A stretch of DNA of 64,000 bases from Octopus vulgaris (lineage: Eukaryota), in assembly GCA_951406725.2 (NCBI GenBank), contig OX597815.1, positions 174,530,001 to 174,594,000 on the forward strand. Reading direction: 5' to 3'. The position numbers and the translations under genes were made by a program. Below are positions 5,045 through 44,313 of the stretch, piece by piece. Under the pieces are notes generated by a model that saw only the letters and a program-made list of their open reading frames with translations, did no database searches and had not been told where the DNA came from. Each line of letters begins with the position of its first letter. Position 1 is the stretch's first letter.

Positions 5045-5292
5045 ATTTATATATAAAAGAAAGGTTGTGTGTCTGTCTACTCCGATTTAGATTCATAACT
5101 ACTCCCACATTTTGCGATGCAGTTTAACCAAAACCGGGTATCTTATAGTCGTGATTCATATCGAGCCCTTCTGGGTATTAGCGCGCGTCTACAATGGGTC
5201 TACGATTTTACAAATAATTTACCATCATTTTTTTCCATTTTAATGCATATTCTTTTTAATAAAGGGAAGTAACTCTCAAACTTCACACCAAT

Positions 5293-5814
5293 ATGCGTGC
5301 TCATATGCAACGTAATATCACATCAGCAGCATTTCCTCACACCCTCCTTGCACTTGGCGAAGGCAAAATACCAGGGGATGAAACTGGTAATATTGCCATC
5401 GATTCCATTTGTACCTTTGTTAAGACGCCTTCTGATCTCAGAGATGCAGTGTTCCCAGATCTACAAGCTAATTATCAGAATATGGACTGGATTGGCCAAA
5501 GGGCTATTCTGACCCCGAGGAATAAAACTGTTCACCATATTAATGATGAAATGCTAAAACTCATTCCTGGGGAAGTCTATGTATATCAGTCTATCGATAC
5601 AACTCCTGACCCAGAGGACGTCATCAACTATCCAATAGAGGTACTCAATTCCTTTGAGCACCCCGGACTACCACCACACTTTCTCAAACTTAAAGTTGGT
5701 GCCCCTATAATGCTCATCAGATATTTGGTTCCCCCAAAACAATGCAATGGCACACGTTTGATCGTTAAGTCCTTATCTCGCACCGTAAACTTATATCAAT
5801 ATTTGCCTGAATAA
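5293..5814 (+). pseudogene. Helitron RepHel PIF1-like helicase fragment
   Basis: RAILTPRN...IN...LIPGE..Y.S.D...YPIEVLNS...GLPPHFLKLKVGAPIMLIR.L....CNGTRLIV: canonical Helitron/PIF1 helicase motifs; truncated at both ends. Confidence 0.9.
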
Positions 5815-10188: not shown

Positions 10189-11360
10189 TCATCATCATCA
10201 TCGTTTAACGTCCGCTTTCCATGCTGGCATGGGTTGGACAGTTTGACTGAGATTTGGCGAGCCAGATGGCTGCACCAGGCTCCAATCTGATCTGGTAAAG
10301 TTTCTACAGCTGGATGACCTTCCTAACGCCAACCATTCTGAGAGTGTAGTGGGTGCTTTTATGTGCCACTGACATAAGGGCCAGTCAGGCGGTACTGGCA
10401 ACAGCCATGCTCAAATGGTGTTTTTTATGTGCCACCTGCACAGGAGCCAGTCCAGCGACACTGACAACAACCTCACTTGAATGTTGTTTTTCACGTGCCA
10501 GTATGGCGACGCTGGTAATGATCATGCTCGAATGGTGCTTTTTACATGCCACCAGCATGGAGCCAGTCAGCGGCCCTGGCAACGATCACCCTCAGATGGT
10601 GCTCTTAGCACACTAACATGGATGCCAGTCATGCAGTGCTGTCATCACATTTGATTTCAATTTCACTTGCCTCAACAGGTCTTTGCAAACAGAGTTTAGT
10701 GTCCAATGAAGGAAAGGTACGCATAAGTGGGCTGGTTACATGACTGGCATAGGCCACGGGATATGGTCTCACTTAGCTTGCCAGGTCTTCTCAAGCACAG
10801 CATATTTCCAAATGTCTCAGTCACTAGTCATTGCCTCGGTGAGGCCTAATGTTCGAAGGTTTTGCTTCACCACCTCATCCAGGGTCTTCCTGGGTTTACC
10901 TCTTCCACAGGTTTCCTCAACTGCTATGGTGTGACACTTTTTCACATAGCTATCCTCATCCATTCTCACCACATGACCATACCAGTGCAGTCGTCTCTCT
11001 TGCACACCACATCTGATGCTTCTTAGGTCCAACTTTTCTCTCAAGGCACTTACACACTGTCGAGTATGCACACTGATATTACACATCCAGCGGAGCATAC
11101 TGGCTTCATTTCTTGCAAGCTTACGCATGTCCTCAGCAGTCACGGCCCATGTTTCACTGCCATGTAGCATGGCTGTTCGTACACATGCATCATACAGTCT
11201 ACCTTTTACTCTGAGTGAGAGGCCCTTTGTCACCAGCAGAGGTAGGAGATATCTGAACTTTGCCCAGGCTATTCTTATTTTAGCAGCTACACTTTCGGAG
11301 CACCCACCCCAGCTACTGACTTGGTCACCTAGGTAATGGAAGCTATGAACTACTTCTAGT
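10189..11360 (-). mobile_element. 5'-truncated RTE-clade LINE with (ATG)n tail
   Basis: ORF 10817-11233 (KGRLYDACVRTAMLHGSETW...RLHWYGHVVRM...GRGKPRKT) is the RTE ORF C-terminus; long 3' UTR ends in catcatcatcgtttaacgtcc on +. Confidence 0.9.
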
Positions 11361-11544
11361 TCAAATCTTTCTAGAGCACTGTTGGCTTCAGTTTACTTGT
11401 TTTAAAACACAGAACCACTCTTACACAGCTGAGTGTTTATCATTAAAAAGGGCATTCAGCTGTAAAACAAATAATCCAGCTCTTAGTTATTCACAAGCTT
11501 TTTCTTATACAGCTTGATAACATATAATCATGCATTAAGCTTAT

Positions 11545-12210: not shown

Positions 12211-12624
12211 CAAGCAAAGAAACAATATATCTAAACACTAAAGAGGTATAATTTATGATAAAGCCATGCTTAGACACAATTTCAGTTCTTGACTACAACT
12301 GAAGAAAAAAAGAAAAGAAATTCTTGTGTGAGTTTTAGTTTTATATCACTGCAGTTCCACATAACCCGAAGGTAAATGTCAACAGTCTATTATTGTTATT
12401 AAAGTCTGTTATTGTTTTAATAATACTATAATAGTACAAGAATCTGTAGTGTTAAAAAACTGGACTGTACATTATAAAATCCTCAAGATGGTAAGTAACA
12501 CTCAGTCTCCCTGCTGATAAAACAACCATTTTGGGGTTTTTTTTCTTGTTAATTTATAACTTACTACTCTCCAAAACCTTATTCTTTTATTTTCTCTTTT
12601 TTTTTATCTTTTGTTTATTTCAAG

Positions 12625-12848
12625 GTGTGGCCCTCGTTTTGAAATATGTAATCAAAGGTTTAAAAGTTGCCAAAGCTGAGTTTGATAGTGATGGTAATGC
12701 AACAGGACAATTACGGGAATTACTGGATTACCTGGAAGCCGTTGATACTTTAAAGCATTCAACAGATGACCAACAAGTGGCACGTCTTGTTGAGCAACAT
12801 CAGTTATCCTATGAGCATATACCAAGTATACATCTCAACTCCTCTGAG
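12625..12848 (+). CDS. RO60: Ro60/TROVE2-like RNA-binding protein, first visible coding exon (TROVE domain); upstream exons outside window
   Basis: ttcaag|GT acceptor, gag|gtaag donor. Translates (G)VALVLKYVIKGLKVAKAEF...LLDYLEAVDTLKHSTDDQQVARLVEQHQLSYEHIPSIHLNSSE, aligning with vertebrate Ro60 GLAIVTKYITKG...LLKYLEAVEKVK...[21 protein letters not shown] as recalled. Confidence 0.9.
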
Positions 12849-12905
12849 GTAAGACCAGCAATTATTTTTTTTATGTAATTTCACCACTGTTTAATCAATT
12901 AAGCA

Positions 12906-13000
12906 TTAACCCTTTTGATACCAACCCACCTGAGAACTCCCATGATTCTATGACACAAACTTCCTGTTTTAAAGTGATCTAAATTAAAGCTTTCCATTAT
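12906..13000. mobile_element. Truncated TTAA-target (piggyBac-like) MITE
   Basis: ttaa-cccttttgatacc...ttcctgttttaaagtgatct shared with copies at 29249, 33040 and 38206. Confidence 0.65.
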
Positions 13001-13154
13001 GAAGCATTATACAGAGATCAGAATATGTTGTGTTTATTTTGCAGTCTAGTCTCTTCATATATAACTAAAAATTATAATATATGAACATAGTATATTCATA
13101 TATAACTTTGTTAACATAGAACATTGGCATCCAGTAAGCCTTCATTCTCCCATA

Positions 13155-13454
13155 TTTACAAGGCGTCCCCAAAGTCCATCCCCTCCTCACCGTGGTGGGG
13201 ACGCTGGCAACGGGTAGTGTCAGAGCTATGCCATCGGGAACTTCAGTTCCTGGTAGGGCCACCCAAGGTGGATTGGTCTGACACCGAGTGGTATTAGGAC
13301 CACAACCCGGCAGACAGGGCTCTGGTAAAAATCCTCGGAGTGTCTGCTTCGGCAACTAGCAGCTCCTCGGTCGTTCTGTCCCTGTTCTGTCTGCGGACAA
13401 TCTGCGGCAAACAGGATGTCTCCACATGTGAGATTGTTGGGGACCGCTTGTGAA
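13155..13454 (+). other. GC-rich (~58%, counted by hand) highly base-paired element containing an RTE-5'UTR-like motif
   Basis: Multiple perfect helices (see findings); core agagctatgccatc...agggccacccaaggtggattggtc recurs at 43904-43959. Confidence 0.6.
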
Positions 13455-14654
13455 ATCCACATATTCCCACGAAACTTCTTCCATGAGTAGAAGAAGCTGA
13501 CTCAACCTGCCCAGGGTGAATGTCGCCACAAGTACAAGTACATATTTACAAGAGGCATTCATCAACCCTATATAGTTTGGGTATAAAGTTTGGTAGGGAA
13601 GCATAGTCAGTCTAATCAACCCAAGTATTTGACTGATGCTTATTTTATCAACATTGGAGAGATGAAGAGTAAAGTTGACCTGGTCTATGTTTGAACTCAA
13701 TATATAGTGATAATACTGTTAAACATTTAAAACTGATGGTATATCCTTTTAACTTCTTGATCGATCTTCAGTAAGTGAAAAATGGATAAGTTATATTAGC
13801 GTTCTGAAATGTTGCAAATGTATATATGTTACATCAACATTTACTTTCAAGGACTTTAGCTATAAAGAAGCTGTGTTTCTTGTATAGCGAAAAAGATTTT
13901 CAGTTTAACAATTTTTGTTTTACTATTTACATATGTTGGTGGGACATACAATCTGTTATGAGGCACAGAATGTTGCTTCTAATGGTTTATAAAATATTAT
14001 TTAGGTTTTGAAAAGTTAGGGGTTCAGACAGAGCTGGTTCAATATACAATAGATCCAATCAGTCAATTTCAGATTCAACTTACTTGTATTATTTCTGTGT
14101 TGTACAAGCCAGTATATGCTTGCAATGTATTTAGTCACATTGACACTGAAATCTATACCCTTTTACTCTTTTACTTGTTTCAGTCATTTGACTGTGGCCA
14201 TGCTGGAGCACCGCCTTTAGTCGAGCAAAATCGACTGTTTCCATAGGTATTCATGAAACTTCTGTCAGGACTTGTGACTAACAAACAGCATCAGCAATTT
14301 GAGAAACCAATGAAAACATAGTTTCCTGCCTTCAATTGGAAGGTCAACTGCCACAGTCATATATTAAAAACATAAGTGCCTTTCAAGGAGATTATTTGTA
14401 AAAGAAAGGGATATTTCCCCTTATAAGTGTATTAACAAAGTAACCAAACATAAACCAATTTCTAATTGAATTTATGTCTAGCATTAATAGTTTCATGATT
14501 TCTATCCTCTTTTTTATAGTAGTGGTGCAATGACTGCTTGTAAAATGTCTCCAGCCTCAGTATACTATTCTGCTGCCATAGAAATAGATGTCATTCTTGC
14601 CTCTCTGTTATCTTTGAAACATATGTGAATATCTTTGTTTATTATTATTATTAA

Positions 14655-27008: not shown

Positions 27009-27871
27009 TATGAGGTCTGATCAATAAGTTTCCAGATTGTTGCCATAGTAATGAAGCTAAAGCATGCAGGGTGAAACCGCTTGGCAAAGATTGACCTTGA
27101 TCTCTACAGTGCATGCACACTAAGTTTTAACGTTCTAGCTCACTTCCACTATTTACAGCAGTGCTTGGAGGGAAGGTGTGTAATATGTGATCGTTGCATT
27201 GACCATGACAGGAAAAGTTATCATGCCGATACCTGTTCAAAGGCCTATACAAAGTTGCAGAAAGTATATGAGCCGCACAGAAGTGTACAAGTGGTTCAGA
27301 TGTTTCCAAGATGGCTGAAAAAATGTTGATATTATCTCAGTAGAACTGAGGAAAATATCGCAGATGCACGTGCAACTGTGAGGGAAAATTGTCGAATCAC
27401 TATCTGTGAGTTATCAGAGGATGTGCAGATCAGTTACAGTTCAGTTCAGTCCATTATTACTGAAGATTTGGGTATGAGATGTGTGTCTGCCAAGATTGTG
27501 CTGAAACTGTTTTCAGCTGACCAAAAAGACACTCTCGCTTCAATTGCACAAGATCTCCTTGATAGTGTCGTGAACAATGCAAACTTTTTGAAAACTTTGT
27601 GTAGACCTCTGAGCAGGTATCGCCAAGCTTTTGGCAAAATTTGATGCAGATTTTCTGCTCAACTTTCTCTGTCATGATCAATGCAATGATCTCATGCTAC
27701 ACACCTTCCTTCCAAGCAATGCTGTAAACAGTAGAAGTGAGCTAGAACATTAAAACTTGGTGCGCATGCACAGCAGAGTTGAAGGTCAATCTTTGCTAAG
27801 CAGCTTCACTTTGCATGCTTTAGCTTCATTACTATGACAACAGTCCAGATACTTATTGATCAGACCATGTA
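27009..27871. mobile_element. Fold-back mariner derivative made of two 5' ends
   Basis: ~210-bp inverted arms 27009-27220 and 27660-27871 start ta(t/c)..ggtctgatcaataagt. The + strand encodes the mariner N-terminal HTH region (RITICELSEDVQISYSSVQSIITEDLGMRCVSAK); the - strand encodes MTEKVEQKICIKFCQKLG. Confidence 0.85.
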
Positions 27872-42862: not shown

Positions 42863-43844
42863 CAGAAATATAGTGTACCACATGAGATACATGGAAGGGC
42901 AATATAAAGACACCATCACAACCCATATAGGAGGAACAATTTGCAGTGTATGTGAAAAGAACACAAAACACTGGCAAGAATATAATGAAGCAGATATCCA
43001 TACTCGATCAAGATGCAGTAGAAAAACAATGGATTAATAAAAGAATAAGTAAAAATTCTTCCCATGCATCCAAAAGGCCCAACATTAATTCAAATTATAG
43101 AGGCTGTATGAATACAGGAAAAAGATACTGACACTCTTCCCAGGCATACCCAATAGAAAGCGTTGCGTTCCTTTACTAATTGCTTGCCACTAAGCCTTGC
43201 ATGTACACTCATTCTGCACCTCATATAGTAACTCTCTCTGTATCTCTCCTTTCCTCTCTCTCTTTATACAATGTAAAGTGTGATTGGAGAAATCAACCAA
43301 CCAGTTAGTCAACCAACATTTACATCAGCTATTTTATATATATGTATATATAAGTGTTATTAATGTCAAGTGAATGGGAAAGGAGTGCTCAATGCATATC
43401 GTAGAGGATATAGTTTCTTTATTAAAAGTGAAACAAAGAGCCTGTCTTGTGACTCAAGTTTTGTGCCAGTACATCATCAGGCATGAAGCTTGAGTAATGA
43501 GACAAATTCTCAGTTTTAATTGTATTTGTGTGTGTGTGTGAGAGAGAGAAAGAGTTAGTTGAAAAAATTTGGAGTTGAATTGAGAAGAGAATGTTATTTG
43601 TTATTTTGAATCTATATGTGTGTATATATGTAAGTATGTATGTATGTGTCAGTAGGAGTGGATCTGTGATGAATTTTTTGAGGCTTGGTTAGAGGGGGAA
43701 AAAAACAGAACAAAGAAAGAAAGACAGACAAGAAGAAAGAAAAAAGACAAAAGAAAACTGATCTCTTATAAGGTATGTATGATACAATTTTAGCCATGGC
43801 TTTCTGGTTTCACACAAATTTTAACAGAATACACTATTTTAAAG

Positions 43845-44313
43845 AAGGCCACCACAAGGTCTGGTTCTTGTAATGCAATAGTTTGTATGTCTCAATGACT
43901 ATAAGATTTATGCCAGCAGTGTGCAAGCTCCTAGCAGGGCTTCCTATGCTAGACAGGTCAAAGGATAGAGACCGAACTAATATGGTCCACTTCTTTTCAG
44001 AGGTAAAAACAGACTTGCATAAGGCTAACACCTATACCTAGAAAAAAAAGCAAAGTTATAGAAGCATCAATGATTATTCAAAACCAACAGTACCCAGGAG
44101 AAAGAAGCCTTACCTCAAGGAAACACATGACCTGGAACCCACAAGGGATGTGGAAGAGAGGTTGCTCTAAAAATAGCTGGAGACAGGATACTGAGGCAGA
44201 GCTGATAATGCAGGGACTCATCTGTAGAAATGCAGAAAAGATAGGACTGAGTTGAGAATTATGATGAGAAGTTGTTGATTGTCTAGGTTCCACTGGGAGC
44301 TAAGAACTTAAGT
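43845..44313 (+). mobile_element. Bipartite non-autonomous RTE derivative (5' UTR joined to ORF 3' end)
   Basis: 5' part has the RTE-5'UTR-like motif (aatgac...tatgccagc...agggcttcctatgctagacaggtc); 3' part encodes TWNPQGMWKRGCSKNSWRQDTEAEL (RTE C-terminus WNPQGKRKRGRP). Confidence 0.7.

What the first reader, a model, noticed from the sequence alone, without database searches (positions are those of the whole stretch)
13155..13454. Self-closing ~300-nt structured RNA element in the Ro60-like intron: candidate RTE-associated ribozyme or structured mobile RNA
Seen: ~58% GC in an AT-rich intron. The ends pair (tttacaaggcgtccccaa 13155-13172 with ttggggaccgcttgtgaa 13437-13454), and gcgtcccca can alternatively pair perfectly with tggggacgc (13196-13204), i.e. 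mutually exclusive folds. Internal helices: gtgtcaga/tctgacac (13217-24/13277-84), ccatc/ggtgg, gggaac-ttca-gttcct, ggg-cca-ccc, gtggt/accac, cgggt/acccg, gcagaca/tgtctgc, cctgtt/aacagg. The junction core (GAGCUAUG...AGGGCCACCCAAG...UGGUC) resembles the 5' UTR motif I recall from RTE LINEs such as BovB and Expander/Rex3, and recurs at 43904-43959 with compensatory changes (ccatc/ggtgg to ccagc/gctag). Known: some RTE 5' ends carry HDV-like or twister ribozymes, but this core matches no consensus I know. Inference: an unclassified functional RNA fold, possibly self-cleaving or an RT-recognition element, here without an attached ORF.
Basis: partly seen in the sequence, partly recalled or inferred. 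Interest (0 to 1): 0.75.

Follow-up and report, generated by a model that had tools for sequence, protein, structure and literature searches.

The report
Ribozyme-headed mini RTE jumping element
This is one of many genomic copies of a shortened jumping gene whose front end is predicted to fold as a known type of self-cutting RNA (hepatitis-delta-like ribozyme); the 'unclassified core' is a conserved branched domain sitting inside that fold, whose job is untested.

Summary
The helices are real, but the unit is not a self-closing 300-nt RNA. It is a 378-nt non-autonomous RTE retroposon (13163-13540). It has a 12-bp target-site duplication, an empty site in a related species, 1327 search candidates in the genome, and a parent LINE that supplies its 5' UTR and last 54 nt. 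Its first 163 nt read as an HDV-like nested double pseudoknot, and the predicted cut (before G13163) is the element's 5' boundary. In 50 RTE-type 5' ends from metagenome contigs, found by the core alone, the flanking P1, P2, P3, P1.1 and P4 covary and the catalytic C is kept in 48 of 50. The end-to-end helix is half chance pairing with the target-site duplication and is not conserved. The 43904 motif belongs to an older, separate family. This copy has lost the top P2 pair and may be weak or dead. Cleavage is untested. RTE HDV-like ribozymes and bipartite RTEs are published, and this scan noted such elements in two other genomes. The P4 domain was not found described, but the key paper could not be read.

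The parts
13151..13162 (+).
   Evidence: empty site with one copy in run X20
13163..13540 (+). Whole non-autonomous bipartite RTE retroposon, 378 nt, sense in a Ro60 intron
13163..13325 (+). Predicted HDV-like ribozyme; predicted cut between 13162 and G13163
   Evidence: cleavage not tested
13163..13204 (+). P1 (13163-13170 with 13197-13204, 8 bp), P2 5' strand (13176-13183), P3 (13184-13186 with 13194-13196, U-U at the base), L3 (13187-13193)
   Evidence: compensatory P1 sequences in subfamilies A, B, C (read by eye)
13205..13210 (+). P1.1 3' strand UG (pairs C13188 and A13189) and J1.1/4
   Evidence: CA/UG kept in A, B, C (27 and 30 of 30); G-C versus A-U swap in the outside set
13211..13309 (+). 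Enlarged P4: basal stem 13211-13215 with 13305-13309, enclosing the core domain and a side hairpin (13288-13303)
13217..13284 (+). Conserved RTE 'core' domain in P4: stem, 6x5 internal loop, stem, three-way junction with a variable hairpin and a 3-bp triloop hairpin
   Evidence: same motif in named RTE 5' UTRs
13310..13325 (+). J4/2 with predicted catalytic C13311 and A13314, one extra C13315, then the P2 3' strand; G-to-A at 13316 breaks the top P2 pair in this copy
13326..13486 (+). Rest of the LINE 5' UTR up to the LINE's likely start codon (ATG 13483-13485); includes a hairpin predicted to sequester C13311 and the distal strand 13437-13447
13487..13540 (+). Last 54 nt of the parent LINE: final codons, 3' UTR and ACAAGT-type repeat tail
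   Evidence: 89-96% identity to LINE 3' ends
13541..13552 (+). Right copy of the target-site duplication
43850..43995 (+).
12624..12851 (+). Upstream Ro60 exon (context)
   Evidence: contigs of four runs guessed to be RNA stop at these borders

Best explanation
The stretch is the front four-fifths of a 378-nt internally deleted RTE retrotransposon, whose first 163 nt are predicted to fold as an HDV-like ribozyme that likely cuts the element out of a host read-through transcript just before G13163. Shown: high-copy family, duplication, empty site, parent LINE sharing both ends, 5' boundary at the predicted cut, covarying pseudoknot. Inferred: an intact copy is transcribed from a host promoter; the pseudoknot closes when the P2 3' strand emerges and C75 (13311) catalyses the cut; the parent's endonuclease/RT protein binds the 3' 54 nt in trans and copies the RNA by target-primed reverse transcription, giving the 12-bp duplication. 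The conserved P4 domain is most likely a peripheral module that serves the RNA after or during folding (protein binding or translation start in the parent, or stabilising the fold), not a second catalytic site. A downstream hairpin and the distal strand are predicted to compete with the active fold, so cutting is likely co-transcriptional. This copy is probably a neutral, partly decayed insertion.
For: Family: 1327 candidates, 40 scored, non-self hits 92-96% identical; 30 aligned copies average 96.8% to their majority. Insertion: 12-bp duplication; a contig of run X20 (another species label) runs from 13150 straight to 13541; duplications of 7 nt or more in 20 of 30 copies. Parent: L096 and L097 carry nt 1-324 at 87-88%, endonuclease and RT matches, then nt 325-378 at 93-96%; the related LINE L061 has RVT_1 at E 2e-35. 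Boundary: commonest base at -10..-1 is 30-57%, G at +1 in 22 of 30, 29-30 of 30 from +4; in the outside set conservation also starts at P1 position 1. Fold: subfamilies A, B, C have three different, fully paired P1 stems, the same CA/UG P1.1, and J4/2 CAGA, CCAA, CUAA. In 50 non-redundant metagenome loci found by the core pattern alone, 30 of 41 pairs change on both sides (shuffles 18.4 +/- 2.1, 0 of 500) and pair types are 77 versus 58.6 (0 of 500); P3 shows U-A 29 / C-G 15 and P1.1 G-C 42 / A-U 3; C75 in 48 of 50, A78 in 45 of 50, L3 U in 49 and G in 42 of 50. A model built from those loci finds only two places in the window, 43841-43999 and 13223-13278. Published RTE consensus ends have the L3-like word at position 20-24 against 25 here.
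Against: No cleavage assay and no raw RNA reads. Deviations from the standard fold in subfamily A: P1 of 8 bp, U-U at the base of P3, P2 of only 4 bp plus 3 after a loop, one extra base after A78. Subfamilies B and C appear to start with C, not G. This copy fails my own strict descriptor because of G-to-A at 13316; only 17 of 127 loci pass. Among the 30 own-genome copies the number of pairs changed on both sides (5 of 42) is not above shuffles (90 of 500). The Rfam hit is far below threshold. The outside model matches this element over the core only, not full length. The outside sequences are related, decayed genomic copies, and the structure was drawn on one of them. Nested folding predicts C13311 paired once 200 nt are made (unpaired probability 0.002) and the 5' strand captured by the distal strand at 290 nt (0.99). 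The 30 copies were best-scoring hits, which favours full 5' ends. RTE clade was assigned from architecture and the shared 5' motif, not from a tree.
Confidence: 0.82

Rival explanations
1. Same element, but in this octopus-like lineage the ribozyme is a relic: the fold is kept for protein binding, RNA stability or translation, and the 5' end is made by an internal promoter.
For: U-U in P3, short P2 and 8-bp P1 in subfamily A; predicted competing folds; L1Tc has a promoter in the same 77 nt as its ribozyme (PMC3185411, passages).
Against: C75, A78, the L3 U and G and P1.1 are kept across three subfamilies while neighbouring bases change. Active R2 ribozymes tolerate P2 and P3 mismatches (PMC3774820, passages). 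One extra base after A78 is also usual in the outside set.
Confidence: 0.15
2. The inner core is an independent, new self-cleaving or ligand-binding RNA that merely sits inside an HDV-like frame.
For: Its unpaired bases are conserved from insects to mammals although P4 is called highly variable in R2 ribozymes; it matches no Rfam family; it persists in a tRNA-headed SINE body (SINE2-1_EC).
Against: No element boundary or break clustering was seen inside the core. Wherever the flanks were intact it sat in P4 of the HDV-like frame. Its conservation in my outside set is partly forced by the search pattern.
Confidence: 0.07
3. A self-closing 300-nt RNA (circular or MITE-like unit) as first read, with two mutually exclusive functional folds.
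For: The minimum-energy fold of 13155-13454 closes end to end; in subfamily A the 5' 10 nt pair with the distal strand almost as well as with the P1 strand (-16.3 versus -17.9).
Against: The outer 8 pairs use target DNA and are an outlier among 27 copies; the element runs 86 nt further and ends in a LINE tail; the distal pairing is not kept in B or C; the duplication is LINE-like.
Confidence: 0.02
4. This copy has been co-opted to regulate Ro60 by cutting its pre-mRNA, as proposed for the CPEB3 intronic ribozyme.
For: Sense orientation in a Ro60 intron; C75, A78, L3 and P1.1 intact in this copy.
Against: Young insertion, absent in run X20; neutral-looking CpG decay including the top P2 pair; one of many copies.
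Confidence: 0.04

Closest known systems
Bipartite non-autonomous RTE LINEs (RTESINE1/2, WALLSI3, Bov-A, RTE-N2_Lch; Kojima 2018, PMC5786205; main text parts 1-4 of 5 and supplement passages read)
   Same: 5' end plus 3' end of an RTE LINE, ORF deleted, no tRNA head, microsatellite tail; same 5' UTR motif in named RTEs
   Different: That paper treats the motif as sequence similarity only and mentions RTE ribozymes by citation; this family is not named in the parts read
HDV-like ribozymes at RTE 5' ends (Ruminski et al. 2011; not held, known only through PMC5786205, PMC6765202 and PMC3774820 passages)
   Same: HDV-like fold at the exact 5' junction of an RTE element
   Different: Cannot say whether their RTE examples carry this P4 domain; here P3 has a U-U base, P1.1 is CA/UG and P1 is 8 bp
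R2 SIDEs of Drosophila (Eickbush and Eickbush 2012, PMC3414825; abstract read)
   Same: Ribozyme plus 3' end of a LINE, mobilised in trans
   Different: R2 is rDNA-specific and low copy; this is APE-type, dispersed, with over a thousand candidates
L1Tc/NARTc ribozyme (PMC3185411; passages read)
   Same: HDV-like ribozyme heading both a LINE and its deleted derivative; downstream sequence inhibits cleavage
   Different: 77-nt minimal fold with short P4 and shown promoter activity; activity demonstrated there, not here
Perere-3 twister variants (PMC8501958; passages read)
   Same: RTE-clade element with a 5' ribozyme
   Different: Twister class; no twister match here

Membership tests
Bipartite non-autonomous RTE LINE | 5' part matches the 5' end of an autonomous-type LINE | tested here: met
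   nt 1-324 match L097/L096 at 87-88%
Bipartite non-autonomous RTE LINE | 3' part matches the same LINE's 3' end with a microsatellite tail | tested here: met
   nt 325-378 at 93-96%
Bipartite non-autonomous RTE LINE | Target-site duplication and empty orthologous site | tested here: met
Bipartite non-autonomous RTE LINE | Parent belongs to the RTE clade by RT phylogeny | not tested
   Endonuclease plus RT in about 3.3 kb and 5' motif shared with named RTEs; no tree built
HDV-like ribozyme | Five helices P1, P1.1, P2, P3, P4 in nested double-pseudoknot order (PMC6326823 passages) | tested here: met
   in the window copy the top P2 pair is lost
HDV-like ribozyme | Catalytic C75 and A78 in J4/2 | tested here: met
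   C13311 in 30 of 30, A13314 in 29 of 30; kept in B and C; 48 and 45 of 50 outside
HDV-like ribozyme | U and G of L3 able to form the reverse wobble | tested here: met
   U13187 30 of 30, G13192 27 of 30
HDV-like ribozyme | P1.1 of one or two pairs between L3 and the strand after P1 | tested here: met
   CA/UG here rather than the CC/GG of HDV; G-C to A-U swap in 3 of 50 outside loci
HDV-like ribozyme | P1 of 6-7 bp, P2 of at least 5 bp, P3 of 3 bp | tested here: inconclusive
   Subfamily A: P1 8 bp, P2 4+3 bp, P3 with U-U; such mismatches occur in R2 ribozymes; the outside set is mostly standard
HDV-like ribozyme | Predicted cut coincides with the element's 5' junction | tested here: met
HDV-like ribozyme | Mg-dependent, C75-dependent self-cleavage | not testable with these tools
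   needs a bench assay
Rfam ribozyme families (HDV, CPEB3, drz-Agam, twister, hammerhead, pistol, hatchet) | Score at the family's gathering threshold | tested here: not met
   0 hits in the window; best 15.6 of 44 bits
tRNA-derived SINE | tRNA-like head upstream of the LINE-derived part | tested here: not met
   The element matches the LINE from its first base
MITE or self-closing circular RNA | Element-encoded terminal inverted repeats at the true ends | tested here: not met
   The ends are 13163 and 13540; the outer pairs come from target DNA

The most novel reading that the evidence does not exclude
A large branch of RTE retrotransposons, from insects to octopus to BovB, carries an HDV-like ribozyme whose P4 is not a dispensable stem but a conserved three-way-junction module that recruits the RTE protein or the ribosome. 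Together with pairing between the start-codon region and the last codons it would define the minimal cis-acting RNA and explain why RTEs keep spawning bipartite mini-elements and SINE bodies.
Probability: 0.3. Interest if true: 0.7.

Novelty: new member of a known kind. Interest (0 to 1): 0.36.

Why it matters
As an element it is ordinary: a young retroposon copy in an intron. The useful part is the structural reading of a 5' UTR motif shared by many RTE LINEs and some SINE bodies. If the P4 domain has its own role, it gives a testable function to a motif so far recorded as sequence similarity. It also bears on RTE-based gene-insertion tools, whose UTRs are being optimised empirically (PMC13708176, passages).

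Tried and rejected
Rfam at gathering score: nothing. Twister, pistol, hammerhead and a second HDV fold starting near 13309 were considered by eye and dropped; the last is a plain hairpin. Expression: no RNA holder listed on record. Four runs guessed to be RNA hold contigs of the family and of the Ro60 exon, but contigs of a repeat cannot show ends, strand or level. Searching for the parent with a LINE 3' piece gave mostly 5'-truncated copies; the start of the ORF found it. Within-family differences are post-insertion decay and give no covariation. RNAalifold cannot model the pseudoknot and returned a different nested fold. My HDV descriptor hit 1 of 20000 element shuffles and once in 20 shuffled windows, but it was written after seeing the element, so this is weak. 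Pairing of the start-codon region with the LINE 3' end ranked 2 of 601 windows in L061, 23 of 521 in L097 and 133 of 597 in L096: mixed. A TROVE search did not map the next Ro60 exon. Eight paper searches listed no description of this family or of the P4 domain. Three primary or review papers (Ruminski 2011, Webb 2009, Webb and Luptak 2011) were not held, so their figures and supplements may already show the domain.

Full report
Observation. The strings and helices quoted are present. 13155-13454 folds at -126.8 kcal/mol, z -3.86 (minus strand -2.54); GC is 56.3%. The upstream exon is Ro60 on the + strand. Rfam gives nothing at gathering score in the window. Below threshold the top hit is an HDV-type model at 13163-13224, E 2.6, which gave the lead.

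The unit. In the 30 fetched copies the family ends in an ACAAGT-type tail. Here a 12-bp duplication flanks 13163-13540; duplications of 7 nt or more were found in 20 of 30 copies, 15 of these ending within 3 nt of +1. A contig of run X20, labelled as another species, joins 13150 directly to 13541, the empty site. L096 and L097 are decayed 3.0-3.3 kb LINE copies with nt 1-324 of the element at the front, endonuclease and RT matches in the middle and nt 325-378 at the end. So the element is a LINE 5' UTR up to the start codon joined to the LINE's last 54 nt.

The closing helix. Its outer 8 pairs use the target duplication; other copies give 1-5 (27 of 30 scorable). The inner part pairs well in subfamily A but not in B or C. 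It may act as a late competing fold in A, but it is not the conserved structure.

The ribozyme reading. Nt 1-163 give P1 13163-70/13197-204, P3 13184-86/13194-96, L3 13187-93, P1.1 13188-89/13205-06, P4 13211-15/13305-09, C75 at 13311, A78 at 13314 and P2 13176-83/13316-25. These match the features listed in PMC6326823 (passages), except that P1.1 is CA/UG. Two older subfamilies, B and C, have different but fully paired P1 stems, the same P1.1, changed L3 middles and J4/2 words CCAA and CUAA against CAGA; this was read by eye from majority lines. On 30 hand-picked copies (12 of 30 A, 10 of 12 B, 8 of 15 C; half of P1 and the P4 base left out because the alignment registers differ) 95.9% of cells pair, but the 5 pairs changed on both sides are not above shuffles (90 of 500). 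Sequence upstream of G13163 is not shared among copies, so the predicted cut is the 5' boundary; these copies were best-scoring hits.

Outside test. A pattern for the core alone returned 99 or more metagenome loci, 80 listed (hosts not determined). 68 had enough flank and 50 remained at 90% non-redundancy, including several with damaged 5' ends. Nine of the 80 match the endonuclease start within 500 nt. The flanks, which the pattern did not constrain, covary as the HDV frame predicts: 30 of 41 pairs change on both sides (18.4 +/- 2.1 in shuffles, 0 of 500) and pair types are 77 against 58.6; P2 has 8 of 9 such pairs, P4 4 of 5, P3 2 of 3, P1.1 1 of 1. C75 is present in 48 of 50, and conservation starts at P1 position 1. 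Caveats: related sequences, a structure drawn on one member, and core bases fixed by the pattern. A covariance model from this set finds two places in the window: 43841-43999 full length and 13223-13278 core only; it scores all 19 own-genome loci tried. The 43904 motif belongs to a separate, older family with the same layout.

Literature. Kojima 2018 (PMC5786205; parts 1-4 of 5) describes bipartite non-autonomous RTEs and cites predicted RTE ribozymes. Its supplement shows the core in BovB and in RTE-7_PM, RTE-4_PM, RTE-14_Lch, RTE-3_Crp and RTE-60_LMi, with an L3-like word at position 20-24 in three of the RTE consensus ends shown and a C75-like word downstream. PMC3774820 (passages) says cleavage coincides with the 5' junction in RTE, that P4 is highly variable in R2, and that P2 and P3 mismatches occur. 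PMC6765202 (passages) says RTEs lack promoters and are co-transcribed from introns. PMC3185411 (passages) shows downstream inhibition in L1Tc. PMC3414825 (abstract) describes R2 SIDEs. PMC4908430 (part 1 of 4), PMC8501958, PMC13708176 and PMC13282606 (passages) were also read. Ruminski 2011, Webb 2009 and Webb and Luptak 2011 were not available. Eight searches listed no account of the P4 domain.

Mechanism. Shown: family, boundaries, parent, conserved fold. Inferred: host read-through transcription, cleavage before +1 once P2 closes, mobilisation in trans by target-primed reverse transcription. Nested folding gives P1 at probability 1.00 in the first 60 nt, but pairs C13311 into a downstream hairpin by 200 nt and captures the 5' strand at 290 nt, so cutting is most likely co-transcriptional. 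This copy keeps C75, A78, L3 and P1.1 but has lost the top P2 pair and fails my descriptor; I put its own activity at about one in three. The role of the P4 domain is open; protein or ribosome binding is my best guess because it is conserved where P4 normally is not.

A lead from an earlier scan note (e1-9964135) was partly tested. Many distinct deletion junctions in A and B fall between a pyrimidine run before the start codon and a complementary purine run in the last codons, though my anchors favour such cases. Pairing of the two LINE ends ranked 2 of 601, 23 of 521 and 133 of 597 in three LINE copies.

Verdict. A new member of a known kind: a ribozyme-headed bipartite RTE. Interest 0.36, carried by the conserved P4 domain and not by this copy.

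Noticed in passing
L034, L038, L043, L044, L046, L053, L057, L117-L127 and window 13475-13496: Many different deletion junctions lie between two complementary 7-nt runs, one before the LINE start codon and one in its last codons; the two LINE ends pair best of all windows in L061 but not clearly in L096.
   Followed up: partly
L013, L018, L054, L097, L118: Tandem 5' duplications of the ribozyme part (57 to about 187 nt) in front of full elements; in L018 an inner repeat has an intact predicted ribozyme.
   Followed up: no
window 43850-44290 (+): Older RTE-type family, 788 candidates; its P3 also seems to start with U-U, as in subfamilies A-C.
   Followed up: partly
L032/L061, L055, L115: Some subfamily-C copies have a standard A-U at the base of P3 but share a different upstream flank that does not supply P1 or P2; possibly a composite with another LINE.
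   Followed up: no
L031, L037: Two further own-genome RTE-type families with the full ribozyme-plus-core layout (77.8 and 111.9 bits).
   Followed up: partly
window 14160-14230 and 12884-13011: Two other repeats in the same intron; the first has extreme depth in DNA contigs.
   Followed up: no
window 10817-11392 (-), 5263-5814 (+), 27330-27644 (+): Remnants that look like an RT C-terminus (tblastn E 3e-8 to L061), a Helitron/PIF1-type helicase and a mariner transposase; the last two labels are recalled, by eye.
   Followed up: no
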